DNA of 64,000 nt from the NCBI GenBank assembly GCA_965243305.1, contig CBDEUN010000003.1, positions 1,221,845-1,285,844 of the forward strand. The letters are read 5' to 3'. Below, piece by piece: positions 7,645 through 21,885 of the stretch. The position numbers and the translations under genes are program-made. Numbering within the stretch: the stretch's first letter is position 1; each line of letters starts with the position of its first letter. Source of the stretch: Arenicellales bacterium. Its GTDB lineage: Bacteria; Pseudomonadota; Gammaproteobacteria; Arenicellales; JAJDZL01. A model generated the notes under the pieces. That model ran no database searches. It was given only the letters and a program-made list of their open reading frames with translations, and had not been told where the DNA came from.

Positions 7645-8844
7645 ATGAAAGCTCGGCGTATCCACTTTCTCTTTCTCAATATCGGACATTTTCTGGACCA
7701 TTTGTTCGTTTTGATTTTTGCGACTGCTGCGGCTTTGACACTGGTCAATGAATGGGGTCTTTCCTATGGCGAGTTGATTCCCTACGCCACACCAGGCTTT
7801 GTTGCTTTTGGCATCTGCGCCATTCCAGCTGGTTGGCTGGCGGATAAATGGAGTCGGGAAGGTATGATCGTTATTTTCTTTCTCGGGATTGGTGCAGCCT
7901 CCATCCTTGCCGGTTTTGCCGAAAGCCCCCTTGAAATGGCAGTGTATCTCACACTGGTTGGAGTTTTTGCTGCGATTTATCATCCCGTCGGTCTTGCACT
8001 CGTTGTTCATGGCAGACAAAGAACCGGGGTTCCCCTAGCCATCAATGGAATATTTGGCAACATGGGAGTGGCATCAGCAGCCTTGATAACTGGATTTTTA
8101 ATTGATGTTTCAGACTGGCGTCAAGCCTTCTTCGTACCAGGAATATTCTCTATTCTCATCGGTATCGGCTACTTTGGTTTTCTCCGTTTCTACCTAAGGA
8201 ACCACCAAACTCACGGCGCAGAGAAACAGCAAGCATCTGCAACTCCCAGCCACGCGCGCAATATATTGATCAGGGCTTTTGCTATTGTGCTCATAACCAC
8301 CGGTATTGGCGGTATGGTGTTTCAAAGCACCACATTTGCGTTGCCGAAGGTTTTTGATGAACGTTTGGGCGACATTGCGCAAAGTGCCGCCGCGGTAGGC
8401 AGTTATGCGTTTGTGGTATTTACCATTGCGGCATTTGCTCAATTACTGGTGGGATGGCTGGTGGACCGCTACCCGGTGAAGCGCATATTTGCCATCGTGG
8501 CCTTAGGTCAGGCCGTATTTTTGTTGGCTATGAGTCAGTTGACCGGAATAGCGGCATTGCTGGTTTCACTGGCATTTACGCTGGCAATTTTCGGTCAGAT
8601 TCCGATCAACGATGTTCTAGTCGGCCGAATCGCCAGGAGCGAATGGCGGGCGAGGGCATATGCACTACGCTACATTGTGACATTTTCAGTCATGGCCTCA
8701 ACGGTTCCATTGATTGGCTGGGTGCATGGCCTTTGGGGATTTGAAACCTTGTTTCCAATGCTGTCTATGGCAGCTGTGGTGACGTTAGTTGCGGTTTTCT
8801 TTATTCCAACCAAACTGGCGGCGGTTACTGCAGCCCGGGCATAG
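7645..8844 (+). CDS. MFS transporter
   Basis: About 12 hydrophobic segments. The ORF opens at TTG 7615. ATG 7645 (MKARRIHFLFLNIGHFLDH) is the more likely start. Confidence 0.8.
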   Translation: MKARRIHFLFLNIGHFLDHLFVLIFATAAALTLVNEWGLSYGELIPYATPGFVAFGICAIPAGWLADKWSREGMIVIFFLGIGAASILAGFAESPLEMAVYLTLVGVFAAIYHPVGLALVVHGRQRTGVPLAINGIFGNMGVASAALITGFLIDVSDWRQAFFVPGIFSILIGIGYFGFLRFYLRNHQTHGAEKQQASATPSHARNILIRAFAIVLITTGIGGMVFQSTTFALPKVFDERLGDIAQSAAAVGSYAFVVFTIAAFAQLLVGWLVDRYPVKRIFAIVALGQAVFLLAMSQLTGIAALLVSLAFTLAIFGQIPINDVLVGRIARSEWRARAYALRYIVTFSVMASTVPLIGWVHGLWGFETLFPMLSMAAVVTLVAVFFIPTKLAAVTAARA

Positions 8845-8930
8845 TAGGGGAAGTCTGTTTACCAAACTTTTGATTCGCGGCTGGACCGGGTGCTGAACAA
8901 TCTACTCTGCGAACTTCTCCAAGAGTTCTG

Positions 8931-9920
8931 TTAGACAACAATTGCGATCACAGCCATGCAGTCACCTGGTTTAATCAGCCCTGGAAAATGTCGTCCGGCC
9001 AATATGCCATCGCGACGGGCGCGATAAGCAATCGGTTCAACTCCAGTACGGTCTAGTGGCCAGACCCATGCTACAACATCATTTCGTTTGATCTCACCAC
9101 CTAGATCGACAACTGGTTCTAGTAATCCGTCATGTTCGCTAATGACAAAACAATCTCCATCTGGCATGTCGAGATTGATTGTGGGTTCCATCTCCATTTC
9201 AGCATTTAGAATTCCAGCGTGGATCAGAACATTTCTCACACCTTTCTTTGCAAGTCTGACAGTAGATTCGCGTGTCGTACCCCCACCGCCCAATTCTGTT
9301 GAAACAAACACTTTGCCCTGCTCTTCAACGACGGTGTCGTACATTCCAGTATTGTCGATTTCTAAAAGAATAGTTGAGTGTGGAGCATTAAATGCCTCCA
9401 TTGCAGCCACGCAGGCTGCCTGTTGCTTCTTGTCTTCCAGAACATGAGCAGCTGCCAAAGGCACAAACTCAAGCGTTTTTCCACCTGAGTGGATATCGAC
9501 AATGACGTCAGCTTGAGGAACCAGCGTTCGCATGAAGTAGTCCGCTATCTTTTCAGTGACTGTCCCTCTCGGGTTACCAGGGAATACCCGGTTCATATTA
9601 CCGTCGTCAATCGGTGAGTTTCGAGTGCCAGCCCGAAAAGCCGGATAATTGAATGCCGGCACGATGATGACTCTGCCCTGAATATCTGCTGCGTTCAGAC
9701 GCAAGGCCAGATCCTGAAGTGCCACTGGACCTTCGTATTCGTCGCCATGATTGGCTCCTGTCAGAAGTGCTGTTGGCCCTGGTCCATTTTTGATGACACT
9801 GATGGGAATCATAATTGAACCCCAGGCTGAATCATTTCGACTGTACGGTAGGCTCAGAAAGCCATGATGAGAACCATCCTCGTCCAAAGGGATCGTCGGG
9901 GAAATTGGATTTTTGGTCAT
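8931..9920 (-). CDS. doeB: N-alpha-acetyl-L-2,4-diaminobutyrate deacetylase (DoeB/EutE; succinylglutamate desuccinylase/aspartoacylase family)
   Basis: AstE/AspA-family metal site (GANHGDEYEG ... DIHSGG). It lies immediately downstream of doeA. ATG 9920 is preceded by GAGGAAG; the ORF track's longer TTG start is 9944. Confidence 0.7.
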   Translation of the reverse strand: MTKNPISPTIPLDEDGSHHGFLSLPYSRNDSAWGSIMIPISVIKNGPGPTALLTGANHGDEYEGPVALQDLALRLNAADIQGRVIIVPAFNYPAFRAGTRNSPIDDGNMNRVFPGNPRGTVTEKIADYFMRTLVPQADVIVDIHSGGKTLEFVPLAAAHVLEDKKQQAACVAAMEAFNAPHSTILLEIDNTGMYDTVVEEQGKVFVSTELGGGGTTRESTVRLAKKGVRNVLIHAGILNAEMEMEPTINLDMPDGDCFVISEHDGLLEPVVDLGGEIKRNDVVAWVWPLDRTGVEPIAYRARRDGILAGRHFPGLIKPGDCMAVIAIVV

Positions 9921-9930
9921 GGTATCTTCC

Positions 9931-11127
9931 TCACTCAACAACAATCAAATCTCGCTCAACATCGCACAGCCTTTCTCCGCCCGACTCTGTCACAACGAAA
10001 GATTCGGACACTGCACAACCCAAGTCATCCAGCCAAACTCCAGATTGGAAGTGAAAACACATGCCAACCTCAAGGACAGTTTGATCTCCCGGTCTCATGC
10101 TGCAGGTTCGCTCACCCCAGTCTGGTGGATATCCCACGCCAACGGGGTAAGCCACGCGACTCTCTTTTACGATACCGTTTCGATTGAGGACTGCCTGCCA
10201 ACCGGCCTCAACCATTTCACAGGTGTTTCCAGGCCTGGCCAACTCTAGGCCAACATCAACGCCTTCAACTATTACCTTGGCGAGATTTCGGATTTTCTCT
10301 GGTGCTTTTCCCATATAGAGTGTGCGGGTCAACGGCGTATGATAACGACGCCTTACCCCTGCAAGTTCCAGCATTACGAGTACATCTGATGGGATGGGTA
10401 GATCTGACCATGTCAGATGGGGCGTACTGGTACTCTCACCAGCTTGAATTAAAGGACAAATTGAAGTGTAGTCACCACCATATCCTTCGGATCCTGCAAT
10501 CTGCGCGCGATAGACCTCCGCAATCACTTCATTTTGTGGTACGCCAGACCTGATTTTGGAGATGGCCGCATTCATTGTTGCGGTACAAATTTTGCCAGCC
10601 TGGCGCATGATACTGACTTCTTTTTCAGACTTCACGAGACGCGCCCAATTGACGAGATCACCATTATTGGAGAATTTTGCATCTGGCAATCCGTTTACCA
10701 ATGTCGCGTGGCAACGCGCAGTATAGTAATGCGCATCCATTTCGACACCAATTCGAGAACTGGCCCAACCTTTCTGACGAATAAGATCAACGAGTTCATC
10801 ATAAGGATGATCAATCGGGTGCATCACTCTTTTTTCGGCATACGCCAGGATATTGTCTGCCGGGAGGTCTGTCGTAACATGAGCTGCTTTGGCATCCTGC
10901 GCGCGGCCAAACCAGATCGGCCACTCCTCATCCAAATGAACCACCACGCATTGTGGAACATAGAAGGACCACCCATCATAACCTGTGAGCCAACACATAT
11001 TACTGGGGTCTTGGCAGATGATCAGGTCGAATCCTGCACGGCTCATACGATGCTTCACATCGTTAACACGCACTGCATACTCTTCAACTGAAAAAAGCTT
11101 TTCAAACAAAGGATTGGAGTCACTCAT
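9931..11127 (-). CDS. doeA: Ectoine hydrolase (DoeA/EutD; M24 creatinase/prolidase fold)
   Basis: 398 aa with CWLTGYDGWSFYVPQ and an M24 pita-bread C-domain. It is flanked by eutC and doeB in the canonical order. Confidence 0.75.
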   Translation of the reverse strand: MSDSNPLFEKLFSVEEYAVRVNDVKHRMSRAGFDLIICQDPSNMCWLTGYDGWSFYVPQCVVVHLDEEWPIWFGRAQDAKAAHVTTDLPADNILAYAEKRVMHPIDHPYDELVDLIRQKGWASSRIGVEMDAHYYTARCHATLVNGLPDAKFSNNGDLVNWARLVKSEKEVSIMRQAGKICTATMNAAISKIRSGVPQNEVIAEVYRAQIAGSEGYGGDYTSICPLIQAGESTSTPHLTWSDLPIPSDVLVMLELAGVRRRYHTPLTRTLYMGKAPEKIRNLAKVIVEGVDVGLELARPGNTCEMVEAGWQAVLNRNGIVKESRVAYPVGVGYPPDWGERTCSMRPGDQTVLEVGMCFHFQSGVWLDDLGCAVSESFVVTESGGERLCDVERDLIVVE

Positions 11128-11130
11128 GAA

Positions 11131-12123
11131 TTATGCCTCGACATTCAGTCCTGTTGATGTGGCGTTCGCACGCTGACGTGCTAATGTTGCGATTGCAGTA
11201 TCCTGAACGCCGGTTCCGGTAAGGTCGCAAATCGTTACGTCGTTTGCGGATTGCCGTCCGGGAGATTTTCCGGCAACAATATCGCCCAGCTCTACGATCT
11301 CAGCGTCCTTAGATAATTCTCCTGCCGCAATTGCATGATGGAGTTCGCCTAGAATTTCCGTCTGAGATCGTCGGTCTGCAACGTAGAGTGAGGCAAATGA
11401 CAGGCATGCGGGTTCAAGTTCGTTCTTGTGAGGTTGATCAGAGCCCATTGCAGTGATGTGTTGACCCGGCTTTAGCCAGTCACGTTTGACTAAAGGTTTT
11501 GCAGAAGGTGTAGTTGTCAATATAACGTCAGCTGAATTGACGGCAGACTGTGGATCATCACTGCTTTCCACTGGAATTTCGAGTTTGTTGCTTAACTCTG
11601 TTGCGGCCTGTTCCGCCTTTGCTGAGTCTCTGGCCCATATGACCGCTGATTGAATGGGTCGTACCAGACACAAGGCTTCCAGTTGCAACCTCGACTGCTG
11701 ACCAGAACCAATGACACAGGCGCGTTGGGCATCTTCTCTCGCCAGGTATCGCGCAGCGACAGCTCCGGCAGCTGCAGTCCGAACATCTGTCAGGTAGCCG
11801 TTGTCCAGCAAAACCGCTTCAATCATACCTGTTTTAACTGAAAACAGCACCATCAATCCCGAAGTGCTGGGCAGTCCAAGTTTTGGGTTATCGAAAAAGC
11901 CGGGAGACATTTTGATGGCAAAACACTCAATGCCGGGTACATATGCAGTCTTGACATCAACTTCACCATTCGATTCTTCTATCGCCATCGACATGATGGG
12001 TGGCATGATCACTTTTCCGCTTGAGAGTGCAGCAAATGCGGATTCGATACAGTCTACGGCATCCAAGTCCAATTGGACGATGCTGCGAAGTTCTTGTTCG
12101 GTCAAAAGTTTTAGGGTTGGCAT
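11131..12123 (-). CDS. eutC: Ornithine cyclodeaminase/mu-crystallin family protein (ectoine utilization EutC)
   Basis: 330 aa. OCD family with Rossmann motif VIGSGQQSR. Its stop lies 3 nt from the doeA start. Confidence 0.7.
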   Translation of the reverse strand: MPTLKLLTEQELRSIVQLDLDAVDCIESAFAALSSGKVIMPPIMSMAIEESNGEVDVKTAYVPGIECFAIKMSPGFFDNPKLGLPSTSGLMVLFSVKTGMIEAVLLDNGYLTDVRTAAAGAVAARYLAREDAQRACVIGSGQQSRLQLEALCLVRPIQSAVIWARDSAKAEQAATELSNKLEIPVESSDDPQSAVNSADVILTTTPSAKPLVKRDWLKPGQHITAMGSDQPHKNELEPACLSFASLYVADRRSQTEILGELHHAIAAGELSKDAEIVELGDIVAGKSPGRQSANDVTICDLTGTGVQDTAIATLARQRANATSTGLNVEA

Positions 12124-12344
12124 ATTTCAGACTGTTGGAAATCGATGTTAATTTTTGTTCAAGTTCAAATAGTAAAGTTAACCTTAGCGTTAAATGAAAT
12201 TGTGAATTCAGGTCACTTTTTCATTTTCAGATTTTCGTCCTGTGTGCAGCACACCTAAAGTATTTACAATTAAATTGTTGTCTGTTTCGAGTCAGCAGAT
12301 TGACTCATTAATTGCTGTCCGTATGAGTTCTGTTTCAAATTATC

Positions 12345-13145
12345 TCAAAATGTACGACGCATAGAAATGCGCACTCCGTGACTCCGTAGTTTTGCACTCG
12401 TTGGTGCGAGATTGAGAATCCGCGGATCTTGACTTCCGTCACGCCAGATTACTTGTCCTGTACCTGTACCTGTTCTTACCTCGCCGAAATCGGTGTACCG
12501 CCAAGCTAATTCAAGAGTTGTATTCCCGTCAACTTCAGTAGCTACCCCAGCACTAATCATCCATGCGAAATCAGTTCGACTATGCCCTGGTACGATGGTA
12601 GTTGTAATTGGAAATGTCATGTGAGTTTCGCTGATCTTGGTGCGCACAGCACCAATTCCTGCCCCCACAAATGGGTGGACAGGTTTGCTGCTCGTCATAG
12701 CCAGCTTGGGCAGGTCGGCATATAGGGCCACCATTCCGGTTAATTTTGAGAGGTCAGCCGCGACAGACTGGCGGCGCGTTGGGCTAAGAAAGTTAGCATC
12801 ACCTCGGAAGGATAACTTGGGATTGTACTCAAGCAGCGCTTCAAGTCGCAGTGTTGGTTCTATGAAGTACCCGACACCGACTTCGAGAGAGGGAGATACC
12901 CCATAATCACCGACTGAACGAAGTGGTGCACCATCTCCACCGGTTCCACATCCATACAGCGGTGTCGGGTCCGAGGTCTCACAATCCACATCCATAAACA
13001 CCGAATCAGTGGCCTGTTCGAAGCCAAGGCCAAATCGAAGATACCACTCCTTTGCATACGCGGATGCAAAATTTAGTAACAGAATGATCGTGAGTGAAAC
13101 TTGCAACTGTCGTTGCACTCGCTTTGACATAAATTGCAGCTTCAT
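12345..13145 (-). CDS. Outer-membrane beta-barrel protein (OmpA-like/porin-family barrel)
   Basis: Signal peptide ending ASAYA, alternating amphipathic strands, and a C-terminal ...RISMRRTF with terminal Phe typical of OMPs. Confidence 0.6.
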   Translation of the reverse strand: MKLQFMSKRVQRQLQVSLTIILLLNFASAYAKEWYLRFGLGFEQATDSVFMDVDCETSDPTPLYGCGTGGDGAPLRSVGDYGVSPSLEVGVGYFIEPTLRLEALLEYNPKLSFRGDANFLSPTRRQSVAADLSKLTGMVALYADLPKLAMTSSKPVHPFVGAGIGAVRTKISETHMTFPITTTIVPGHSRTDFAWMISAGVATEVDGNTTLELAWRYTDFGEVRTGTGTGQVIWRDGSQDPRILNLAPTSAKLRSHGVRISMRRTF

Positions 13146-13300: not shown

Positions 13301-16300
13301 TTATTCTTGTTTTTTCTCAGGTTCAAATACGAACGTCGGGACGACTACTTCCCATTCATCACACCTTAGATGTCGGTGAAACTTACTATCGGAAATTTTA
13401 CGACTCCAACTTATCACCGCATGCACTTTTGCAGTTCGACACCTCATTCCAGATGGCGGTACGAAGGATTTCGCCAATCTACCCACAGCGCAGTCCGAAG
13501 AATTTAGCAACAACCAACTACCGTTTTCTTCAATCTTTACTTTTAGTGGGTCGCCCGCCGATAGTTTGCTTATCGCTTTGTGTATCGGATTTCGGTAGTG
13601 ATGCCGTCCAGCATAACCAATATCAATATTCTGTAGATCAGGTTGGACAAATTGATGCTCAACTTCTTTTGAATGCGGTGGAAGGTTGGCAGTCTCTCGC
13701 TGAATGGCTGATTTATGGTCTCGCAATTCGTTCTGCAACCCTTGTGAATTGCGGAAATTACTAAGCATGAGTGTTTGCCGAGCGCGCGTCATGGCCACAT
13801 AGTACAACCGACGTTCTGCGTCAGGATCCTCTTTGTATTTGGCACGGCCCCAACCACCATCCAAGACAGCTACATGATCAAATTCCAATCCCTTGGCACG
13901 GTGGGCGGTGAGCAAAAGAAGCCCCCGCTGACGCCGCCGAATTTCCTGGCCCCATTCTGCCAGCCATTCAATGAAAGCTTCAACCGTTGTTTCGTTGCCA
14001 CCTGTTTCCTCCAAGAATTCGTCAATTGCCTGACGGATTAGGTCATACCAATAATTGGAGGGACAAGATTCTAACCATCCGTTCAATGCCTTCCTATCAA
14101 CAATTCCTGGTACCCTCTCGCGCAGCCATTTGAGTAACGTTTGTGTTTCTCGCAAACGCAAGAATCTTGGTAATTCCTCGTGCACCATCTGTACAGGAAT
14201 GTTGCAAGATTCGCAAAATGCGCGCACGGGATCCAGAACATTCCACTCACGCGCGATGACCGCACATAGCGACCAACTCCAATCCTGAGCAAGTTCTTGT
14301 AAGCGCAGAAACTCAGTCATTACGGCCTGCGCCTGAACGATTGCATCACTACATGCTGGTAGAATTTGTACACGACCGCGTGAAACCGGGTCCAGCGTTT
14401 CCCATTGTCCACCCGCTGGTATATTTTCGCGTGCTCGGTTAACCCGGATGGGATGTTTATGTTTCATCCGCTCACGGGCTTTCTCAATAATTACGTTGGC
14501 CGATTCAATGATGTTTCGTGTGGAACGGTAATTTTCAATCAACCAGTTTGGTTGCGCTTGGTAGTCCTGTTCGAAAAGTCGAATGTACTTCACCGAAGCG
14601 CCTCTGAACGAATAGATGTTCTGGTCGTCATCTCCAACCGCGAACAGAGATAATTTACCCATATCTTCTTCCTGAGATCGACCCGCAAGTGCGCAAATCA
14701 GTTCATATTGTTCGGGTCCGATGTCTTGATACTCGTCTACGAGAATCCATTGAAAACCTCTCAATAGACGTTGGCGGCGTTCATCCGCCTCTTCTGCTAA
14801 CAGTCCTTCACCTTGAAGCACCTCTACCGCAGTACGCATCATATTTTTGAACATCTCATCATTGGGGCGTTCCGATTCCTCTCTAAAACTGAAACCCGCC
14901 AGACGCATGGCAAGTGCGTGACAAGTGAGCACTGTCACTCCAAAAGAATCATCCCCAATCAGTTCTACCAGCCGGCGGCGGATATCCACAGCTGCGTGAC
15001 GATTGTAAGCCAAGGCGATTATGCTCCGGGCATTCTCCCTCCTGACACGAATCAAGTACGCGATTCGGTGTACCAGAACGCGTGTCTTGCCAGACCCCGG
15101 TCCTGCGAGAACCAGTGCGTTGACGTGTTCCCTATCATCTGAAACAATATTCTGCTGAACACTGTTGTTCAAATTTCCAACTATTGCCTGCCACGATTCT
15201 GGCGATGTCTGGCGGCTGATTTCTTCGTCTCGTCCTGGAAGCCAACATTCAAGAAACGCCTTCTCGTTCATGGAAAAGTAGTCTGTTACCAGACGCAGTG
15301 CTTCACCCATCTTTTGACGACCACGCTCAGCGAATTCCTCCATGACGTGAATTTGCAACACCTGACGTTCGTAGTGAAGCGAAAGGGGCTGAAAGTCTGC
15401 TTTAGTAAAAGTTTTTCGATTCCCCTTCTGCAGTCGGATCTTCATAGCTGGACGAAACACCACGAGTCCTTTGTTGAGACGAAGCACCTCCATATCATGC
15501 AGCCAAAGTAAAGCTCGATCCAATAGCTTCTCCGGATTTCTGACCCTGGTTTTTAGAGCCAAGTCTGACCTAATGGCTTGCAAGAGCTTTCCAAGTGTGG
15601 TGGCAGCGAGTAAATCCGTACCGCGACTACGTTTAGGAAGGCAAATAAGCAAATGTTCCAACAAAATTCCAGCTGCTTCGCGTCGAATTTCAGCAGTCTC
15701 TTCCAATGCTTGCCATTCACGCTGTAAAGTGATGTGTACAGTTTCGGCATCGCGCTTGCGTACCGCTATACTACCTGCAGCGCCATCATCTTCCTCCCGG
15801 CCATCGTAGGAAATACCGCGAATGATTCGCCACAGTCGTTCGGGAAGGGGTTCCGGTTCATCTTGATGTCTCAATGTCTGCGCTGCGAATCGCAAGTGCA
15901 GTTGTGAGGAGTCTCCTTTTCCTTGATCAGGAGCCTTCTCGCGCATAAGCGCAATCAGTGCTTTCTCTAATTTGCACGCCTCCGTTAATCGCTTTTTAGA
16001 GGAGCGTTCCACGGCATTGTGAACAAATACGGTAATCTCCGTGTCATTGTTTGCAATGCCGTATCGTTCCAATGTGTACAGTGCGCGGCGTACTCCTTTA
16101 GGATTCAGTCCAGAAACTACCATCAATGCATCTGTGCTGATTCCTTCATCAGCATCCGCTTGCAGTAATGCTTCTGCCATATTTAACAACTGTTTGCGAT
16201 ATCTGTCTTGAATTTGCGCTTTGGACAGTTTCTGTCTGGCTTCGGCCAACGACTTCACTTGGAGGGATGACGGAAACACATTGACGACGTTTTCATCCCG

Positions 16301-18430
16301 AGTAAGAAACTCCGATTGCTCAAGCCAAGCGACAGCAGTACGCACTTTGGTATCGCTAGTGGCGGAATCCCGCACCGATAAATTGTGCTCGTCTTCTTCA
16401 AGAATTTCACCCGCGGTTGCAACCACTTCACCTTTGAAACGGTTTTTGCGGTTCAGATTTTTCAGTGCCCTTAGTATTCCGTTTATTTCTCCTCTCGAGA
16501 TTCGAGACCTCGCTGACATACCAAACTGACGTTCGACGTCGTCTGTTGCATAGAGAAGAACACAACGGGCTAGCGCCCGGTCGCGCCCAGCACGTCCGGC
16601 CTCCTGGATGTAGTTCTCTAGCGAACCTGGAATGTCGGCATGAATGACAAGTCGCACGTCCGGCTTGTCAATTCCCATACCGAATGCATTTGTAGCAGCA
16701 ATCGCACGCAACTCACCACTAATGAATTTGCGTTGTACCCCTTTTTTGGTTTCAGGTGGCAAGCCGGCGTGAAATCGGTCAGCGGTAATGTCCTTCCTTT
16801 GCAAGTATTTTGCAACTTCCTCACTTCGTTTTCGCGTGGCACAGTAAACAATGGCGCCTCCAGGTTCGTTTTTGTGTAGTTTCGATGTCAGAACTTGGTA
16901 GATGTGCGAAAATTTTTCTGGTTGAGTGGTTGGGACGACTTCGAAAACTAGATTGGTACGCTCTGAACCGCCGTCCAACACTTCAAGTTCGATATCAAGT
17001 TTTTCTTGAAAATGATTGGTGATATCTTTAACGACATCAGGTTTGGCGGTTGCAGTGAGACATAGTACGGGAGGCCTCTGTCCACTAGAAGACTTCTCCT
17101 TAATGAAACGTCCTACATAGAGATAGTCTGGTCGAAAGTCGTGACCCCAACGGGATAAACAATGTGCTTCGTCCAGCACCCAAGTGCCAATTTCGCGCTG
17201 TTCTAAAGCCCGTCGTAACGTGCGCGAACGTAATTGCTCAGGTGAAATCAGAACAATACCGATGTCGCCCAACCGAATCCGATCCAACGCATCATTTCGT
17301 TCGGGCATCGATAAAAGTCCGTTCACCGTGACGCAACAGCCAATGTTCTTCTCTTCAAGACCATCGATCTGATCCTTCATCAGAGCGACCAAAGGAGAGA
17401 TAACCACTGTCAGCGCTCCTGTATTGCTATAGCGAGATAGTGCCGGAATCTGGTAGCAGAGGGACTTGCCTGTTCCCGTGGGGAGGATTCCGAGTACTGA
17501 CTGACCTGCCATCACTTTCTCCACAATGGCTTGCTGCATGGAACGGTCGTTTTCAAACTCTGGTATTGGACGAAAATCGTTAAATCCGAACCATCGTTTC
17601 AACTCTTTGCGGGCATCGTGTCGCTCGCGACACCACATACAATCCGCAGATGTGCAGGCACGATCCCTTAAACTTCGAACCAAGTGACCAGTTTCTGGAA
17701 ACTGATGACGCACCCAAGGTGGCATCACTGAATTTTCACCCGCCACAGACAACCAGGCCAAGACATAGGCCAGCACCCAGCCGGACGAATTGATATCCGC
17801 CAGCAGTTTGCGAGCAGTCGTCTGGCAGGTTATGTTCGTTAGTCTTCTTTCGATCGCTGCTTTCGCTTCTTGTGAGGTTGGTTTACCTGCATTTCGAATT
17901 CCACAGAAGAGATGATTAAGCGCTCGATCAATTCCGTTGGATTCTTTTATGCAGAGCCAGTGCCATGCAGTAAGTAAATTCTCATCTGCTTTTGCCAAAG
18001 CCTCGCGTTCGTCATGAAAAACATCCAGTGCCAGCTGTGCGTCCAATTCCGGATTGTTTGCCTGTTTGCGTATGATTTCGCCACCTAGGTAGTGTTTGAT
18101 AAGGTGGTGATAAGGATTGCGGGGGAAAGCCAGCGGGCTTAGGCGCAGCGTATCGATTACGGGTAAATTCAGCAGACGCAAATTTGGATTCGCTGCTCTT
18201 ATGTGCGGCAGATCATGGGCAATTACGTTATGACCAAGAACTAGGGATGCGCTATCGGCGTAGTTATCGAGCGCTTCTAGTGCTCGTTCAATGTTCTTGA
18301 CCGAATGAGAGAAACTGTATTCTCTGTCTTCGCGAACTGCGCCGATTGCGTAAATCTGACCACTGTCTTTCCTGACTTCAAGGTCGAGCGAAATACAGGA
18401 TGAGAAAAGTTTGAAGTTTGTTGAGGTCAA
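13301..18430 (-). CDS. Giant fusion protein: DEDD 3'-5' exonuclease + RecQ-family helicase + UvrD/Rep-family helicase (1709 aa)
   Basis: Exo motifs: ISLDLEV, GHNVIAHDLPHI. RecQ motifs: LPTGTGKSLCYQIPAL, VLDEAHCLSRWGHDFRPDY, LCLTATA, ATNAFGMGIDKPDVRLVIHADIPGSLENYIQEAGRAGRD. UvrD motifs: VLAGPGSGKTRVLVHRIAYLI, ILVDEYQDIGPEQ, VGDDDQNIYSFRGA, NYRSTRNI, LTAHRAKGLEFDHVAVLD, RRLYYVAMTRARQTL. It is one uninterrupted ORF. TTG is the only start that includes the exonuclease DxE motif. Confidence 0.85.
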   Translation of the reverse strand: MTSTNFKLFSSCISLDLEVRKDSGQIYAIGAVREDREYSFSHSVKNIERALEALDNYADSASLVLGHNVIAHDLPHIRAANPNLRLLNLPVIDTLRLSPLAFPRNPYHHLIKHYLGGEIIRKQANNPELDAQLALDVFHDEREALAKADENLLTAWHWLCIKESNGIDRALNHLFCGIRNAGKPTSQEAKAAIERRLTNITCQTTARKLLADINSSGWVLAYVLAWLSVAGENSVMPPWVRHQFPETGHLVRSLRDRACTSADCMWCRERHDARKELKRWFGFNDFRPIPEFENDRSMQQAIVEKVMAGQSVLGILPTGTGKSLCYQIPALSRYSNTGALTVVISPLVALMKDQIDGLEEKNIGCCVTVNGLLSMPERNDALDRIRLGDIGIVLISPEQLRSRTLRRALEQREIGTWVLDEAHCLSRWGHDFRPDYLYVGRFIKEKSSSGQRPPVLCLTATAKPDVVKDITNHFQEKLDIELEVLDGGSERTNLVFEVVPTTQPEKFSHIYQVLTSKLHKNEPGGAIVYCATRKRSEEVAKYLQRKDITADRFHAGLPPETKKGVQRKFISGELRAIAATNAFGMGIDKPDVRLVIHADIPGSLENYIQEAGRAGRDRALARCVLLYATDDVERQFGMSARSRISRGEINGILRALKNLNRKNRFKGEVVATAGEILEEDEHNLSVRDSATSDTKVRTAVAWLEQSEFLTRDENVVNVFPSSLQVKSLAEARQKLSKAQIQDRYRKQLLNMAEALLQADADEGISTDALMVVSGLNPKGVRRALYTLERYGIANNDTEITVFVHNAVERSSKKRLTEACKLEKALIALMREKAPDQGKGDSSQLHLRFAAQTLRHQDEPEPLPERLWRIIRGISYDGREEDDGAAGSIAVRKRDAETVHITLQREWQALEETAEIRREAAGILLEHLLICLPKRSRGTDLLAATTLGKLLQAIRSDLALKTRVRNPEKLLDRALLWLHDMEVLRLNKGLVVFRPAMKIRLQKGNRKTFTKADFQPLSLHYERQVLQIHVMEEFAERGRQKMGEALRLVTDYFSMNEKAFLECWLPGRDEEISRQTSPESWQAIVGNLNNSVQQNIVSDDREHVNALVLAGPGSGKTRVLVHRIAYLIRVRRENARSIIALAYNRHAAVDIRRRLVELIGDDSFGVTVLTCHALAMRLAGFSFREESERPNDEMFKNMMRTAVEVLQGEGLLAEEADERRQRLLRGFQWILVDEYQDIGPEQYELICALAGRSQEEDMGKLSLFAVGDDDQNIYSFRGASVKYIRLFEQDYQAQPNWLIENYRSTRNIIESANVIIEKARERMKHKHPIRVNRARENIPAGGQWETLDPVSRGRVQILPACSDAIVQAQAVMTEFLRLQELAQDWSWSLCAVIAREWNVLDPVRAFCESCNIPVQMVHEELPRFLRLRETQTLLKWLRERVPGIVDRKALNGWLESCPSNYWYDLIRQAIDEFLEETGGNETTVEAFIEWLAEWGQEIRRRQRGLLLLTAHRAKGLEFDHVAVLDGGWGRAKYKEDPDAERRLYYVAMTRARQTLMLSNFRNSQGLQNELRDHKSAIQRETANLPPHSKEVEHQFVQPDLQNIDIGYAGRHHYRNPIHKAISKLSAGDPLKVKIEENGSWLLLNSSDCAVGRLAKSFVPPSGMRCRTAKVHAVISWSRKISDSKFHRHLRCDEWEVVVPTFVFEPEKKQE

Positions 18431-19034
18431 TGTAAGTGTTTGCTGTTAAAACGGAAAATGATAATCAATCGCGTAGCATTGGGATAGGCTGCTTTTCGTC
18501 AATTTACAGAGATACTGGATGACACAGGATAGAACAGGTATGAGTCAAAAAACCGGAAAGGATGGCGGTACGACAACTGCGCGAGCACCATTCAAAGAAA
18601 CTGGGTGCAGCAGGGAAAGGACTTTACGGAGCGGTTGCGGCCGTGCTACCGTACGCACTTGAGAAACAGGTGCTGCGGCGCGTGATCAACTACTTACGAA
18701 AAGACCAGCTTGCCTTCGTAAATGACTGGCGACCTCCATTCGGGATCACAAGCGCCTGCTAAAGCACACTCCACATTGATGTCTATGACAGCAGAAAACA
18801 CTACTATCACAATTCAATCAAAGAGTTATAGGTATCACACACAACTTTCTTTGGACAGTAGTGGCAGCAAGGACTTTCACGCGGATTCATTCGAAGAAAG
18901 ATTCATGGCATTGCTCTCCATTTGATAACGTTATGAAAAAACGCTGCACTCTCGGCAACGATTGTCGGAATTGTTCCCGAACCAAACTCAGTCCTGCATC
19001 GATTCCGACTGCGGCGGGCGATTCGGGTGTTGCC

Positions 19035-20075
19035 TCATCCCGTCCGCCAAACCGTCACACCGCCCTGGGCGTCGAGAGCGGCAAGTGCGCGCCCGTCTGG
19101 CCGCCAGTGCAGTTCGGCGACTACGTCCGCCACAATCGCAGCCCCGATCGGACCACCTTCTCCATTCGTCTGAAGCAACCACACAACCACGCCACCGTCG
19201 CGGCCTCCCGACGCCAAGCGCAAATCGCGGTGAGCGAATGCAAGCGTAGAGACGGGTTGAACATGGAGCTTTAGAGTACTGGGCCGTGTACCTTCGGGAC
19301 CACCTTCTTGGAAGTTCCAGACTGTAACCACCTCACCTCCACCGGTGGCCAATAGAGTGCCCGTGTCATCGAAGGCCAGGGTCGACGGTTTGCAGGGATA
19401 ACCGGACATCATGTAATCCTCCTCTGTTGAGCGACGCCAGAAGTGCACAGTGTTGTCCTGGCTGCCGCAGGCCACGATATTTCCTTCCGGGCTCAGTACC
19501 ATCGACACCAAAGAGCCCTTCCACGTAAGCTTCTGGCGAAGCTTTCCAGTGAATCCGTCTAAGAACGTCACTCGACTGTAGCAGGCCGTCGCTAGCTCCC
19601 CTGTGCTGGACCAGGCGATCGCGCTGACGGTACTGGGATGATCATCAGTCCGCCAGGCCTCGTCGCCGTCTTTGCCAAACACGCTAACCTGTCGGGAGCA
19701 GGAGGCTGCCAGCAAACGGCCGTCCGGCGACCACGCGATGTGCTCCACCCAACCGTTGCCGACGTCGATGGCCTGATTCACCTGACCTTCAGCGATTCCC
19801 CAGACTAGGACTCGTCCGTCCTGGCCGGCAGTTGCGAATGCGGTTCCGTTTGGGTGGACTGCCATCGAAAGCACGCCGCCAAAGTGTCCCCCCTGCTGCT
19901 CCCAGGCGCGTGCCCCGGACTTGCCGTCGAATGCGTAGACTCCACCTGCGGAGTCTGCGACCACCAGTGTATCGCCGCGCAGTGTCCAGCCCCCGGCGAT
20001 AGCGTAGTCGCCGACAGTCGTGGACCAGCCCCGGCGAAGCACTCCTTTAGGTTTGTCGATGTTTAATTTAGACAT
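19035..20075 (-). CDS. WD40-repeat protein
   Basis: 346 aa with repeated ...GG.V..V..HP/SPDG..LA....DG.V.VW units. The ATG overlaps the upstream COG0523 gene by 13 nt. The DNA is high-GC. Confidence 0.8.
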   Translation of the reverse strand: MSKLNIDKPKGVLRRGWSTTVGDYAIAGGWTLRGDTLVVADSAGGVYAFDGKSGARAWEQQGGHFGGVLSMAVHPNGTAFATAGQDGRVLVWGIAEGQVNQAIDVGNGWVEHIAWSPDGRLLAASCSRQVSVFGKDGDEAWRTDDHPSTVSAIAWSSTGELATACYSRVTFLDGFTGKLRQKLTWKGSLVSMVLSPEGNIVACGSQDNTVHFWRRSTEEDYMMSGYPCKPSTLAFDDTGTLLATGGGEVVTVWNFQEGGPEGTRPSTLKLHVQPVSTLAFAHRDLRLASGGRDGGVVVWLLQTNGEGGPIGAAIVADVVAELHWRPDGRALAALDAQGGVTVWRTG

Positions 20076-21409
20076 GCTTCGAACCCCTGCCGCATACTCC
20101 GCTCGTCGAGGTTGCGTCCGATGAAGACGAGCTGGTTACGGCGGGGAGCGTCCCCCCATTCACGATCAGGCTGACCGTCAAAGAGCATGTGAACTCCTTG
20201 GAACACGAAGCGACGCGACTCGCCCGACAGGCTGATGAAGCCTTTCATTCGAAAGATGTCCACCCCGCGCTCTCGGAGCAGTTCGCTAAGCCATTCATTA
20301 AGTCTCTCGGGATCAACGTCGCCGCCGCAATCGATGGCGATCGAACCCACCTCGTCATCGTGCTCGTGCTGTGCGACCCATGTGCGCTCGACCTTGTGCC
20401 TGACTACTGCTCCTTCGGCATTCATCAGTTGCAGATCAAACTCTTCTGCGGTGTGTTGGGCATAGAGGCCAAGGCGCATCAGTGTTTTAACATCCAAGAA
20501 GAACGACTTGCGCCCTGCGGAATCGAGCTGCAGATTAATGTGCTTTCCGATAGGAATTGCTTCCCCTGGGTGAATGAGCGTCGCAGGTTCGGCGTATCGC
20601 CGCACACACCATTCCGCACTCTCACGGAGGGTGGCGTCATTTGTGCCTTGGTCGGGTACGACAACGAGCGACATTGTCGGATCAGGTCCTTCGGCGAGGC
20701 TGAGTTCATATCGCCCAACATCGAGGGAGTAGACTCCAGTCCATTCGAACGGATACTCCGGCTCGAGGAAGGTGGGACGGCGCTCGAGCGCCTGGTCCAG
20801 ATCGAAGGCGCCGAGGTTGAGTACCGTATCGACAGAGATGTTCGCCCGCTCGCTGCGCACAACCCGCGCCATTCGGTTCATTTCTCGGAGTCGAGCTTCG
20901 AGCTGGTCGAGCACCTCGGTGTTGACCAGATCAGTCTTGTTGAGTACCAGGATGTCCGCGAACGCGATTTGCTCGGTGCTTTCGTCGCTGCGACCGAGCT
21001 GTTGCTCGATATGGGCGGCATCGACGAGCGTGACGATCCCGTCAAGAGAGAACTCCGAGCGAATTTCGTCGTCCATGAAGAAGGTCTGAGCGACCGGGCC
21101 GGGATCGGCGAGTCCGGTGGTCTCCACTAATACGTAGTCAAATTTATCGCGACGCTTCATGAGATTTCCGAGCACGCGAATCAGGTCTCCACGCACCGTG
21201 CAGCAGATACAGCCGTTCGACATCTCGAAGATCTCTTCATCAGCATTGATGACCAGCGCCTGATCGATGCCGACCTCGCCGTACTCGTTCTCGATCACGG
21301 CAATACGCTTTCCGTGCTCCTCGCTCAAGATTCGGTTGAGTAGAGTCGTCTTACCAGAGCCGAGGAAGCCGGTTAGAATAGAAACGGGTACTTTTTGCGT
21401 TGCGTTCAT
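20063..21409 (-). CDS. COG0523-family GTPase metallochaperone (CobW/YjiA/ZigA-like), long form
   Basis: P-loop GFLGSGKTTLLNRIL, metal motif GCICCTVRGDL, VETTGLADP, NKTDL, and a CobW C-terminal domain (RMKGF...FQGVH). 448 aa. Confidence 0.9.
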   Translation of the reverse strand: MNATQKVPVSILTGFLGSGKTTLLNRILSEEHGKRIAVIENEYGEVGIDQALVINADEEIFEMSNGCICCTVRGDLIRVLGNLMKRRDKFDYVLVETTGLADPGPVAQTFFMDDEIRSEFSLDGIVTLVDAAHIEQQLGRSDESTEQIAFADILVLNKTDLVNTEVLDQLEARLREMNRMARVVRSERANISVDTVLNLGAFDLDQALERRPTFLEPEYPFEWTGVYSLDVGRYELSLAEGPDPTMSLVVVPDQGTNDATLRESAEWCVRRYAEPATLIHPGEAIPIGKHINLQLDSAGRKSFFLDVKTLMRLGLYAQHTAEEFDLQLMNAEGAVVRHKVERTWVAQHEHDDEVGSIAIDCGGDVDPERLNEWLSELLRERGVDIFRMKGFISLSGESRRFVFQGVHMLFDGQPDREWGDAPRRNQLVFIGRNLDERSMRQGFEACLN

Positions 21410-21444
21410 CTGATTCTCCTGAAATTGTTCATTTAGTTAAATAT

Positions 21445-21885
21445 TCAGTGCCCCCAGTCGTATGGTGGCACGCGCCCCCGTATGCTTGAGCGGAGGCGCT
21501 TCGGACGTCGCTCCCGCGGCATGAATCCGTCTGCGGTACCGACGTAGAGCGAGACGCACTCCAAGATGTCACCCACGCTCTCGCTCGGCTGCTGATCTCC
21601 AAAGAGGTAAATCCACGCCTCGGGTGACGAGAGTGCGATTCCGCAGGGACGCGGGCATAGGCTGAGGCACTCGGCAGACCTGACCTCAACGTGGTGTCTT
21701 AATGGACTTTCATGGAATGTCGCGCGAAGCTCTTGATAGAGTTTGAAGCCGGCTCGACTCTCTCTTGGCTCACGCGCAGAGCCGAGTGCCCTACAGGACG
21801 TGCAAACGTGAAGTACAGATTCACGACAGATGCCATGAGATGTCGGTGGCCCTTTCGCTAAAACGGATGACGCAGTTTTGATCAT
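21445..21885 (-). CDS. DUF1636-family metal-binding protein
   Basis: Cys pattern LHVCTSCR ... AECLSLCPRPCGIAL ... YLFGD ... RGRVPP matches my recollection of DUF1636, which often precedes cobW-like genes. Confidence 0.7.
   Translation of the reverse strand: MIKTASSVLAKGPPTSHGICRESVLHVCTSCRALGSAREPRESRAGFKLYQELRATFHESPLRHHVEVRSAECLSLCPRPCGIALSSPEAWIYLFGDQQPSESVGDILECVSLYVGTADGFMPRERRPKRLRSSIRGRVPPYDWGH

What the first reader, a model, noticed from the sequence alone, without database searches (positions are those of the whole stretch)
13301..18430. 1709-aa single-polypeptide DEDD exonuclease-RecQ-UvrD triple fusion (WRN-like plus a second helicase motor)
One uninterrupted ORF carries three catalytic modules in series.

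1. Residues ~1-170 hold a DnaQ-like 3'-5' exonuclease (ISLDLEV; GHNVIAHDLPHI).
2. Residues ~300-700 hold a complete RecQ motor (PTGTGKS; DEAHCLSRWGHDFRPDY; TATA; GMGIDKPDVRLVIH...QEAGRAGRD). It is preceded by a Cys cluster, ACTSADCMWCRERH.
3. Residues ~1130-1640 hold a complete UvrD/Rep motor (GPGSGKT; VDEYQD; YSFRGA; AHRAKGLEFD; VAMTRAR).

The RecQ and UvrD modules are separated by a ~430-aa linker and followed by a ~70-aa tail, neither of which I can assign. Exonuclease plus RecQ is the architecture of eukaryotic WRN. Two SF1/SF2 motors of different families plus a proofreading-type nuclease in one bacterial protein is unusual. The gene is monocistronic and needs a TTG start to include the exonuclease DxE motif. 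It sits inside the ~10 kb that separates the two halves of the ectoine catabolic genes, which suggests accessory origin. Helicase-nuclease fusions are recurrent single-gene anti-phage effectors, so a defence or conflict role is plausible. A specialised repair role is equally possible.
Basis: partly seen in the sequence, partly recalled or inferred. Interest (0 to 1): 0.75.

Follow-up and report, generated by a model that had tools for sequence, protein, structure and literature searches.

The report
Exonuclease-fold–RecQ–UvrD triple-fusion helicase family
This is a real, intact 1709-residue bacterial protein that joins an exonuclease-like domain to two different DNA-unwinding motors; it belongs to a large, uncharacterised, horizontally spreading gene family that is found next to anti-phage genes more often than ordinary recQ genes are, but whose function has never been tested.

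Summary
The ORF (13301-18430, minus strand, TTG start, 1709 aa) is real and is not an assembly artefact. Twenty-eight of 30 genomes from about 10 phyla encode the same architecture in one unbroken frame.

Module order:
- a DnaQ-fold domain
- a Cys4 cluster
- a RecQ-type SF2 core
- a ~460-aa linker that looks like tandem winged helices
- a UvrD-type SF1A core
- a poorly conserved ~150-aa tail

Both motors keep all catalytic residues. The four DEDD acidic residues are invariant. The catalytic His of DEDDh enzymes is replaced by Asn across the family, so nuclease activity is uncertain.

The family is large (≥1,200 clusters at 50% identity), patchily distributed, and present on at least 26 plasmids or chromids but not on phages. 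It has no conserved partner gene and clearly crosses phyla. Its immediate neighbours are enriched for R-M, Abi and candidate defence genes relative to a recQ control, although most loci, including this window, are housekeeping.

In this window the gene has native GC content, sits at the same position as in an 88%-identical relative, and shows no insertion scars.

No description was found in the literature. Defence against foreign DNA is the favoured role (~45%) and specialised repair is the main rival (~35%).

The parts
13301..18430 (-). Complete ORF, 1709 aa plus stop, TTG start
   Evidence: Full-length homologs at 65-92% identity. A single unbroken frame in 28 of 30 genomes. Start position supported by homolog N-termini.
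17921..18430 (-). Residues 1-170: DnaQ-fold (DEDD-type) domain. D16 and E18 form Exo I, H67-N68...D73 form Exo II, and N125...D130 form Exo III with Asn in place of the catalytic His. The conserved DTL and PYHxLVK motifs lie between them.
   Evidence: AF2 model pLDDT 87.8. Foldseek top hits are all DEDD exonuclease domains. Profile hits to the SaDinG and T7 polymerase exo domains. Residue invariance.
17606..17920 (-). Residues 171-275: helical region carrying invariant C202, C259, C264 and C267, a putative Cys4 zinc site immediately before RecQ motif 0
   Evidence: 29/29 conserved; H271 only 23/29. Helical in the AF2 model. Zinc binding is inferred, not shown.
16526..17605 (-). Residues 276-635: RecQ-type SF2 helicase core, with motif 0 FGFxxFRP..Q, Walker A GTGKS (K322), DEAH (420-423), the aromatic-rich loop HCLSRWGHDFRPDY, and QEAGRAGRD
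   Evidence: Pfam DEAD and Helicase_C. TIGR00614 above its cutoff. Best PADLOC matches are DpdF and PsyrT. Catalytic residues 29/29 invariant.
15146..16525 (-). Residues 636-1095: linker with about four helix-helix-helix-hairpin (winged-helix-like) modules, then a long helix and the conserved HYxxQxxQIHVM motif
   Evidence: AF2 model pLDDT 77, pTM 0.54. No significant PDB fold match. Weak recurrent wHTH Pfam hits in several homologs. Weak DtxR-type wHTH profile hit.
13766..15145 (-). Residues 1096-1555: UvrD/Rep/PcrA-type SF1A helicase core, with GPGSGKT (K1115), VDEYQD, GDDDQNIY, NYRS, AHRAKGLEFD and YVAMTRAR
   Evidence: Pfam UvrD-helicase, AAA_19, UvrD_C and UvrD_C_2. NCBIfam uvrD, pcrA and rep equivalogs all far below cutoff. 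Catalytic residues invariant.
13304..13765 (-). Residues 1556-1709: C-terminal tail of unknown fold and the least conserved region (mean pairwise identity 0.29). Its only near-invariant feature is the W1693-E1694 (WEV) motif.
   Evidence: Alignment A4. No Pfam or PDB sequence hit. Per-domain identities.
18431..19034 (-). Upstream intergenic region of 604 bp, presumably holding the promoter. It has no recognisable Shine-Dalgarno sequence and no LexA box.
   Evidence: Sequence. Terminator-like hairpin at 18942-18960 after the WD40 gene. No LexA box in this region, and the window-wide count is at chance level.

Best explanation
The gene encodes a genuine single-polypeptide DNA-processing machine from a large, uncharacterised, horizontally mobile family.

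Shown:
- The module order is DnaQ-fold domain, Cys4 cluster, RecQ-type SF2 motor, winged-helix-like linker, UvrD-type SF1A motor, variable tail.
- Both ATPase/helicase active sites and the four metal-binding acidic residues of the DEDD site are under strict purifying selection.
- No partner gene is conserved.

Inferred mechanism:
- The two motors, both from families that translocate 3'->5' on ssDNA, engage DNA ends, forks or gapped/branched DNA.
- The winged-helix array holds duplex DNA.
- The N-terminal domain binds the 3' end that the motors deliver and probably trims it, using an atypical general base because the canonical His is Asn.

Inferred role (about 45%): a stand-alone accessory system that acts on foreign or aberrant DNA such as phage or plasmid replication intermediates. 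On this reading it would be a one-gene functional analogue of helicase-nuclease defence or surveillance systems, with the fast-evolving tail serving as a specificity or regulatory module.

In this particular genome the gene is a long-resident copy with native composition, lodged inside the ectoine-catabolism cluster.
For: Real and intact:
- 28 of 30 genomes in a single frame at 37-66% identity.
- shorter relatives are truncations, not a different architecture.

Domains:
- RecQ and UvrD; DnaQ fold; catalytic residues align with the SaDinG and T7 polymerase exo domains; winged-helix-like linker.

Active sites conserved:
- K322, the DEAH box, R613/R616, K1115, DEYQD, R1302, R1549, D16, E18, D73 and D130 are all 29/29.

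Family size and fixed architecture:
- 1,217 clusters at 50% identity; the N-terminal domain is always at the N-terminus of proteins of about 1700-1900 aa.

Horizontal transfer:
- the window protein is 58-64% identical to Chloroflexota, Nitrospirota, Desulfobacterota and Actinomycetota copies, but only 37-47% identical to most gammaproteobacterial copies.
- One search shows the taxonomic scatter.

Plasmid carriage:
- 26 plasmids or chromids carry it at ≥80% coverage.

No partner gene:
-.

Defence association:
- immediate neighbours hit 47 PADLOC families, including R-M types I, III and IV, Hhe, HmaC, AbiEii and PDC candidates.
- the same pipeline on neighbours of ordinary recQ genes hits 13 families, all generic.
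- Annotated contexts lie next to type I R-M plus HNH plus an integrase, type I-D CRISPR plus WYL, a methylase/helicase pair and an IS element, TA modules and IS66, and RloB/AAA_21 or RT/ParE.

The tail is the fastest-evolving part (0.29 against 0.60 for RecQ).
Against: - Most loci, including this window, have ordinary metabolic neighbours.
- The window copy has native GC content, no flanking repeats, tRNA or integrase, and the same position in an 88%-identical relative.
- The family has no PADLOC model of its own.
- No experimental report was found.
- Cross-phylum identity of 58-66% indicates very strong constraint. The author judges this unusual for defence proteins (own knowledge, no tool result).
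- The DEDDh catalytic His is missing. Alanine substitution of the DEDDh core residues, H149 among them, nearly abolishes exonuclease activity in SaDinG (PMC12345164). The nuclease may therefore be weak or dead.
- The linker's winged-helix assignment is not statistically significant.
Confidence: 0.5

Rival explanations
1. It is a specialised DNA-repair or fork-processing enzyme. On this reading it is a bacterial functional analogue of WRN (exonuclease plus RecQ), of MrfAB or of exonuclease-DinG. The helicases expose a lesion, stalled fork or crosslink intermediate and the DnaQ-fold domain resects the 3' end. The gene would be carried as an accessory repair function on chromosomes and large replicons.
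For: - All three modules come from families whose characterised members act in repair and recombination. RecQ and UvrD are recognised. SaDinG and MrfAB are helicase plus DEDDh exonuclease repair factors (PMC12345164; bioRxiv 10.1101/426304 listed).
- Strong purifying selection acts on the whole protein.
- No toxin, abortive-infection or effector-type domain is present.
- Most neighbours are housekeeping genes.
- The position is stable within the window's lineage.
- Distribution follows taxonomy in Methylococcales.
Against: - There is no LexA box upstream.
- Cross-phylum transfer is strong and the distribution is patchy.
- The gene is not syntenic even among related methanotroph genera.
- Defence genes are enriched next to it relative to recQ controls.
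- It falls far below the equivalog cutoffs for RecQ, UvrD, PcrA and Rep, so it is not a replacement ortholog.
Confidence: 0.35
2. The N-terminal DnaQ-fold domain is catalytically inactive and serves only as a 3'-end or ssDNA-binding sensor. The protein would then be a dual helicase or translocase without nuclease activity, for example a remodeller that strips proteins or unwinds invading DNA. This is a rival for the mechanism, not for the biological role.
For: - Asn125 (27/29; Ser in 2) occupies the position of the DEDDh general-base His, and D130-4 is not Tyr.
- Alanine substitution of the DEDDh core residues, H149 among them, nearly abolishes SaDinG exonuclease activity.
- Pfam's RNase_T model does not recognise the domain.
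Against: - All four metal-ligand acidic residues, plus H67, are invariant across about 10 phyla. That is hard to explain without metal-dependent chemistry.
- Invariant Y107 and H108 lie in an adjacent flexible loop and could supply the general base.
Confidence: 0.4
3. It is a maintenance or competition factor for plasmids or other mobile elements, for example one that protects or processes the element's own DNA or counteracts host defences, rather than a host defence or repair gene.
For: - It is present on 26 plasmids, megaplasmids or chromids, in regions rich in TA modules, IS elements and partition genes.
- A few IMG/VR contigs carry it.
Against: - Most copies are chromosomal with no mobile-element genes nearby.
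- Most carrier plasmids are typed non-mobilizable.
- No full-length copy occurs in 50,697 phage genomes.
- Four of the five full-length IMG/VR copies lie near contig ends.
Confidence: 0.08
4. It is an artefact: two or three adjacent genes fused by an assembly or sequencing error, or a decaying pseudogene.
For: A few copies are fragmented: the Nostoc pNPUN02 copy is split into 3 ORFs, and two Acidobacteriota MAG copies carry frame shifts.
Against: - Twenty-eight of 30 independent genomes, including complete isolate genomes and plasmids, encode the full architecture in one frame.
- All catalytic residues are invariant.
- More than 100 full-length database homologs of 1700-1770 aa were found.
Confidence: 0.01

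Closest known systems
Eukaryotic WRN (Werner syndrome helicase-exonuclease)
   Same: An N-terminal 3'-5' exonuclease-fold domain is followed by a RecQ-family helicase core in one polypeptide. The RecQ motif 0, the DEAH box and the aromatic-rich loop are present.
   Different: - No RQC or HRDC region was detected, and the recQ model match stops at the end of the helicase core.
- The exonuclease's nearest structural matches are DnaQ and polymerase exo domains.
- The general-base residue is absent.
- WRN has no second SF1 motor and no N-terminal Cys4 cluster.
- The resemblance is architectural convergence, not orthology.
Exonuclease-DinG of Firmicutes (S. aureus / B. subtilis DinG) and the two-protein MrfA/MrfB pair
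   Same: - A DEDD-fold N-terminal domain is fused to (or partnered with) an SF2 helicase.
- The SaDinG exo domain is the best sequence-profile hit among nucleases and a top fold hit.
- The Exo I, II and III motifs align residue for residue.
   Different: - DinG's helicase is XPD-like with 5'-3' polarity, not RecQ.
- SaDinG and MrfB are canonical DEDDh enzymes with the catalytic His (H149 in SaDinG), whereas this family has Asn.
- DinG has no UvrD module.
RecQ-like helicases of conflict systems: RqlH/PsyrT (PsyrTA toxin-antitoxin) and DpdF (Dpd 7-deazaguanine DNA-modification/restriction system)
   Same: The RecQ core scores best against these PADLOC models: DpdF 381 bits and PsyrT 295 bits. 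Like them, it is a RecQ-family member that is not the housekeeping RecQ equivalog.
   Different: - The matches cover only residues ~270-680.
- No PsyrA/RqlI antitoxin or dpd gene cluster is adjacent, and no neighbour is conserved at all.
- Those proteins lack the DnaQ-fold and UvrD modules.
UvrD-like helicases of defence systems (Gabija GajB) and housekeeping UvrD/Rep/PcrA
   Same: A complete SF1A core carries all the helicase motifs. GajB models hit at 1e-47.
   Different: - It is far below the equivalog cutoffs for UvrD, PcrA, Rep and helicase IV.
- No GajA partner is present.
- The core is embedded as the C-terminal half of a much larger protein.
Dual-motor helicase-nucleases RecBCD / AddAB / AdnAB
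   Same: Two helicase motors and a nuclease are combined in one machine that processes DNA ends. Own knowledge: RecBCD also acts as an anti-phage barrier.
   Different: - Those machines are heteromeric, use RecB-family (PD-(D/E)xK) nucleases and pair SF1 motors (SF1A plus SF1B in RecBCD).
- Here a single chain pairs an SF2 RecQ motor with an SF1A motor, both from 3'-5' families, together with a DnaQ-fold domain.

Membership tests
RecQ family (SF2) | Family-level HMM above its curated cutoff (TIGR00614 recQ_fam) | tested here: met
   305.3 bits against a cutoff of 219.8, residues 292-635
RecQ family (SF2) | Motif 0, Walker A, DExH, aromatic-rich loop and motif VI are intact | tested here: met
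   FGFxxFRP..Q, GTGKS, DEAH, HCLSRWGHDFRPDY and QEAGRAGRD are invariant
RecQ family (SF2) | Canonical bacterial RecQ ortholog (equivalog model; RecQ-Ct zinc/WH region and HRDC) | tested here: not met
   TIGR01389 scores 344.6 against a cutoff of 640.2, and NF008279 scores 262.5 against 1015. The match ends at model position ~336 of 591, so the RecQ-Ct and HRDC regions are not matched. No Pfam RQC or HRDC hit.
UvrD/Rep/PcrA family (SF1A) | Pfam UvrD-helicase and UvrD_C above gathering score, with motifs I-VI intact | tested here: met
   131.4 bits (cutoff 23) and 59.4 bits (cutoff 25.6). GPGSGKT, DEYQD, GDDDQNIY, NYRS and YVAMTRAR are invariant.
UvrD/Rep/PcrA family (SF1A) | Ortholog of UvrD, PcrA, Rep or helicase IV (equivalog cutoffs) | tested here: not met
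   uvrD 162.6 against 1144; pcrA 164.6 against 911; rep 131 against 951; helicase IV 133 against 543
DEDD (DnaQ-like) 3'-5' exonucleases | RNase H-like DnaQ fold | tested here: met
   AF2 model pLDDT 87.8. The top Foldseek PDB hits are all DEDD exo domains with probability 1.0, and TM is 0.58-0.59 against the isolated DnaQ domain 8h2f/8h18. E-values are only 1e-3 to 5e-2.
DEDD (DnaQ-like) 3'-5' exonucleases | Four acidic metal ligands (Exo I D-x-E, Exo II D, Exo III D) | tested here: met
   D16, E18, D73 and D130 are 29/29 invariant. They align with T7 polymerase D5/E7 and with SaDinG D95 and D154 (residue roles from PMC12345164).
DEDD (DnaQ-like) 3'-5' exonucleases | Fifth catalytic residue: His (DEDDh, H-x4-D) or Tyr (DEDDy, Y-x3-D) | tested here: not met
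   Asn125 (27/29; Ser in 2) aligns with SaDinG H149. The position D130-4 is Asp or Asn.
DEDD (DnaQ-like) 3'-5' exonucleases | Recognition by curated sequence models (Pfam RNase_T and related) | tested here: not met
   No hit for the window protein. Only 1 of 29 homologs hit, at E=0.12.
DEDD (DnaQ-like) 3'-5' exonucleases | Measured 3'-5' exonuclease activity | not testable with these tools
   Needs a biochemical assay with a D16A/E18A control
WRN-type exonuclease-RecQ helicases | RNase-D-type (DEDDy) exonuclease plus RecQ core plus RQC plus HRDC | tested here: not met
   The domain order exo then RecQ is shared. However, no Tyr is present, no RQC or HRDC is detected, and there is an extra UvrD module.
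Known multi-gene defence systems containing RecQ-like or UvrD-like helicases (Dpd, PsyrTA, Gabija) | Presence of the system's partner genes next to the helicase | tested here: not met
   No gene family is shared by the flanks of 33 loci. The window's neighbours are OMP, WD40, CobW and ectoine genes.
Anti-phage defence genes in general | Enrichment in defence islands | tested here: inconclusive
   47 PADLOC families, including R-M types I, III and IV, Hhe, HmaC and AbiEii, hit among 110 immediate neighbours. A matched recQ control gave 13 generic families. Defence-like neighbours are still a minority and the counting was crude.
Anti-phage defence genes in general | Protection against phage when expressed | not testable with these tools
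   Needs phage-challenge experiments

The most novel reading that the evidence does not exclude
The family is a previously unrecognised one-gene immune or surveillance system. It would be a self-contained RecBCD-like machine in which an SF2 RecQ motor and an SF1A UvrD motor, joined by a winged-helix array, load on foreign replication intermediates or free DNA ends. A His-less DEDD domain would sense and degrade the 3' strand, and the rapidly evolving C-terminal tail would set target specificity or autoinhibition.
Probability: 0.35. Interest if true: 0.75.

Novelty: new variant of a known kind. Interest (0 to 1): 0.6.

Why it matters
Helicase-nuclease fusions are a recurring theme in both DNA repair and anti-phage immunity. 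A single chain that couples motors from two different helicase superfamilies to a DnaQ-fold domain has not been described in the literature I could search.

The family is large, is labelled only 'RecQ family ATP-dependent DNA helicase' in public annotation, spans about 10 phyla, moves horizontally, and occurs in culturable, genetically tractable bacteria such as Cereibacter, Rhizobium, Paracoccus, Allochromatium and Methylomonas. Its function is therefore directly testable.

If it is a defence gene, it adds a new single-gene system and a new way of wiring two motors. If it is a repair gene, it is a bacterial counterpart of the WRN logic with an added UvrD motor. Either way, the family-wide His-to-Asn change in an otherwise intact DEDD site raises a clear enzymological question.

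Tried and rejected
1. Direct Pfam, NCBIfam and PDB sequence searches of the N-terminus, linker and tail gave nothing significant. Only structure prediction and a family profile revealed the DnaQ fold.
2. The linker fold search gave no significant match. Weak wHTH-type hits only suggest winged-helix modules.
It remains unassigned.
4. I considered a natural 'split' version (exo | RecQ | UvrD as three genes) in Nostoc pNPUN02. It is rejected: the order is RecQ | UvrD-N | UvrD-C, so it is a fragmented copy, and PGAP's '3'-5' exonuclease' label sits on the UvrD C-terminal piece.
5. I looked for a UvrD-less variant among the 1000-1400-aa relatives. They end at scattered positions, often with junk C-termini, so they are truncations or frameshifts.
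6. SOS regulation: no LexA box lies upstream, and the window-wide count is at chance level.
7. Insertion scars: there are no meaningful direct or inverted repeats around the gene and no tRNA in the window. No eutB-like remnant is detectable in the upstream spacer.
8. Phage origin: there is no full-length copy in 50,697 phage records, and only about 6 among 2.9 million IMG/VR contigs, with four of the five full-length copies near contig ends.
9. Conserved operon partner: none was found among 33 loci.
10. Eight literature searches with different term sets found no description of a RecQ-UvrD or exonuclease-RecQ-UvrD fusion.


Full report
**1. The observation**

The window contains an uninterrupted ORF on the minus strand at 13301..18430, 1709 aa. 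TTG at 18430 is the first possible start codon after the upstream stop. The residues it adds (F..C.SLDLEV) are conserved in every homolog. Homologs with canonical ATG starts begin 10-25 residues before the DxE motif, and the 88%-identical relative uses TTG at the same position.

- Pfam finds DEAD (297-469) and Helicase_C (506-617), then UvrD-helicase/AAA_19 (1092-1291) and UvrD_C (1502-1559).
- NCBIfam places the first motor in the RecQ family: TIGR00614 scores 305 bits against a cutoff of 219.8.
- Both motors fall far below every equivalog cutoff (RecQ, UvrD, PcrA, Rep, helicase IV). They are family members, not the housekeeping orthologs.

**2. Not an artefact**

- A protein search returned more than 100 full-length homologs (1700-1770 aa, 65-92% identity, 99-100% coverage). 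Every homolog that carries a source name is called 'RecQ family ATP-dependent DNA helicase'; the named ones come from several phyla.
- A scan of species-representative genomes returned at least 33 full-length loci.
- In 28 of 30 of those loci the whole protein aligns as one unbroken frame at 37-66% identity. The two exceptions are MAGs with frame shifts.
- An exhaustive search with residues 1-290 found 1,217 clusters at 50% identity. The domain sits at the N-terminus of proteins of about 1700-1900 aa.
- The shorter hits end at scattered positions, often with junk C-termini, so they are truncations. The architecture is fixed.

**3. The N-terminal domain**

Sequence models do not recognise it. 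An AlphaFold model built on 72 homologs is confident (pLDDT 87.8, pTM 0.85).

Its best PDB matches are uniformly DEDD 3'-5' exonuclease domains:
- E. coli Pol II
- S. aureus DinG
- an isolated DnaQ domain (TM 0.58-0.59 normalised to the target)
- T7 and RB69 polymerases
- RNase T

The E-values are modest (1e-3 to 5e-2) but the matches are coherent.

A family profile weakly hits the SaDinG exo domain (E=0.023) and T7 polymerase (E=0.19). It aligns D16/E18 with T7 D5/E7, H67/D73 with SaDinG H90/D95, and D130 with SaDinG D154.

D16, E18, H67, D73 and D130 are invariant in 29 of 29 diverse homologs. The residue aligned with the DEDDh catalytic His (SaDinG H149) is Asn125 in 27 of 29 sequences and Ser in 2. 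Alanine substitution of the DEDDh core residues, H149 among them, nearly abolishes SaDinG activity (PMC12345164).

So the fold and the metal site are conserved but the canonical general base is absent. Invariant Y107 and H108 in a nearby flexible loop are candidate substitutes.

**4. Other regions**

Invariant C202 is the likely fourth ligand, which gives a Cys4 site immediately before RecQ motif 0.
- *Linker (636-1095).* It models at moderate confidence (pLDDT 77, pTM 0.54) as about four helix-helix-helix-hairpin modules plus a long helix. No fold match is significant. Several homologs give weak winged-helix Pfam hits and the profile weakly hits a DtxR-type wHTH. 'Tandem winged-helix-like array' is therefore a tentative reading.
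- *Tail (1556-1709).* It has no detectable relatives.
- *Conservation by region* (mean pairwise identity):

| Region | Identity |
|---|---|
| RecQ core | 0.60 |
| UvrD core | 0.51 |
| exo domain | 0.44 |
| linker | 0.42 |
| tail | 0.29 |

All catalytic residues of both motors are invariant.

**5. Distribution and context**

*Horizontal transfer.* The window protein is 58-66% identical to copies in Arenicellales, Caldilineaceae, Nitrospirales, Dehalococcoidia, Desulfobulbus and Acidimicrobiia. It is only 37-47% identical to most gammaproteobacterial copies, including Methylobacter, Pseudomonas, Chromatiaceae and a second Arenicellales genome. This is a clear signature of horizontal transfer.

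*Replicons.*
- Full-length copies lie on 26 plasmids, megaplasmids or chromids.
- None lie on 50,697 phage genomes.
- About six lie on 2.9 million IMG/VR contigs, with four of the five full-length copies near contig ends.

*Partners.* No neighbouring gene family is shared across 33 loci.

*Defence neighbours.*
- The two genes on each side of the fusion (110 proteins) are mostly housekeeping.
- They nevertheless hit 47 PADLOC families, including type I, III and IV restriction enzymes, Hhe, HmaC, AbiEii and several PDC candidates.
- The same pipeline applied to 110 neighbours of ordinary recQ genes hit 13 families, all generic cross-hits.

*Annotated examples.*
- A type I R-M system, an HNH nuclease and an integrase next to the gene in Allochromatium pALVIN01.
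- A type I-D CRISPR-Cas locus and a WYL protein nearby in Thiothrix pTfr153.
- TA modules and IS66 in Cereibacter, Sulfitobacter and Rhizobium.
- RloB/AAA_21, or an RT gene plus a ParE-type toxin, in methanotrophs.

*Methylococcales.* The protein tree roughly follows taxonomy, yet three genomes have three different contexts.

**6. This window specifically**

- The helicase lies between eutB-like, PhyH and eutA-like genes plus ABC-transporter genes on one side and eutC-like, doeA-like and doeB-like genes on the other. It shares that gap with an OMP gene and a DUF1636-CobW-WD40 block.
- The helicase's GC content (0.47-0.49) matches the surroundings. The CobW-WD40 block (0.57-0.60) does not.
- There are no flanking repeats and no tRNA, and the ORFs annotated across 1-32 kb include no integrase or transposase.
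- An 88%-identical relative has the same gene order. The copy here is therefore long-resident in its lineage. The 'accessory origin' idea rests on family-level evidence, not on local scars.
- A terminator-like hairpin follows the WD40 gene and a 604-bp spacer precedes the helicase, which is consistent with the gene having its own promoter.
- Co-transcription with the downstream OMP gene (155-bp gap) cannot be excluded.
- No LexA box lies upstream.

**7. Interpretation**

At the molecular level I am fairly confident (about 0.8) of the following: this is an active dual-motor DNA helicase/translocase with a metal-binding DnaQ-fold domain that handles 3' ends.

Both parent helicase families translocate 3'->5' (established knowledge for RecQ and UvrD). 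The two motors therefore cannot simply co-translocate on opposite strands of one duplex end as RecB and RecD do. They more plausibly work on the two arms of a fork or gap, or one pumps DNA toward the other and toward the nuclease-fold domain.

The biological role is not settled.
- *For a conflict or defence role (about 45%):* cross-phylum transfer, plasmid carriage, non-syntenic contexts, enrichment of defence genes over a matched control, and a fast-evolving tail.
- *For a specialised repair role in the manner of WRN, exonuclease-DinG or MrfAB (about 35%):* housekeeping neighbourhoods in most loci, very strong sequence constraint, absence of any toxin or effector domain, and stable residence here.
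- *Smaller possibilities:* a plasmid-maintenance role (about 8%) and an artefact (about 1%).

**8. Comparison with known systems and novelty**

The protein is a RecQ-family and UvrD-family member by curated thresholds, but it is not an ortholog of RecQ, UvrD, PcrA or Rep.
- It resembles WRN and exonuclease-DinG in logic but fails their defining features (no RQC or HRDC, no catalytic His or Tyr, a different helicase class).
- Its RecQ core scores best against PADLOC's DpdF and PsyrT models, but no partner genes are present.
- Eight literature searches found no description of this fusion. The searchable library excludes much subscription literature, so this is absence of evidence only.

I classify it as a new variant of a known kind (helicase-nuclease machines). 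It is of moderate-to-high interest because the family is large, unannotated, unusual in pairing SF2 and SF1 motors, and readily testable.

**Caveats**

- ORF calls in the flanks were crude (longest non-overlapping ORFs).
- PADLOC counts come from an aggregated table, so the number of defence-like neighbours (roughly 12-14 of 110) is an estimate.
- The Foldseek E-values for the exo domain are marginal, although consistent.
- The linker assignment is not significant.
- The tail is unassigned.

Noticed in passing
window 19035-21885 (minus strand): A DUF1636 - CobW/COG0523 GTPase - WD40 propeller block has GC 0.57-0.60, against ~0.48 in the surrounding DNA. It looks compositionally foreign, yet it is also present at the same place in the 88%-identical relative L081.
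   Followed up: partly
L081 9258-9686, compared with window 18431-19034: The close relative has a 142-aa PALP-domain fragment gene between the WD40 gene and the helicase. No eutB-like remnant is detectable in the corresponding 604-bp spacer of the window.
   Followed up: partly
L081 21133-23895, compared with window ~5500-7400: The relative carries an MmeI-type restriction-modification gene (920 aa) beyond the MFS transporter. At the corresponding place the window has an Ldh_2 dehydrogenase and a methyladenine glycosylase. This is a variable spot about 6 kb from the helicase.
   Followed up: no
window 43000-45000 and 53000-57000: There are two further GC anomalies, 0.57 and 0.41 against a background of ~0.48. 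I did not examine them.
   Followed up: no
L082 (Nostoc punctiforme pNPUN02) 7824-12842: A distant copy of the family is broken into three ORFs. PGAP names the UvrD C-terminal fragment '3'-5' exonuclease', a label that could mislead anyone who reads it as evidence of a nuclease.
   Followed up: yes
L171 4324-7673 (Methylobacter) and L170 881-2828 (Methylomarinum): In Methylobacter the helicase sits beside a 576-aa RVT_1 protein with a 323-aa partner (possibly a DRT- or retron-like pair) and a YafQ/ParE toxin pair. In Methylomarinum it sits beside an RloB plus AAA_21 pair and a Uma2 nuclease.
   Followed up: no
L165 8055-8681 and L167 7805-8434: The Cereibacter and Sulfitobacter plasmid copies both have a ~209-aa hypothetical ORF immediately upstream on the same strand. 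I did not compare the two, so a clade-specific partner gene cannot be excluded.
   Followed up: no
window 3061-5259 (minus strand): A 732-aa protein carries an N,N-dimethylformamidase beta-subunit-like C-terminal domain (E=2e-92), upstream of the ectoine and osmolyte catabolic genes.
   Followed up: no
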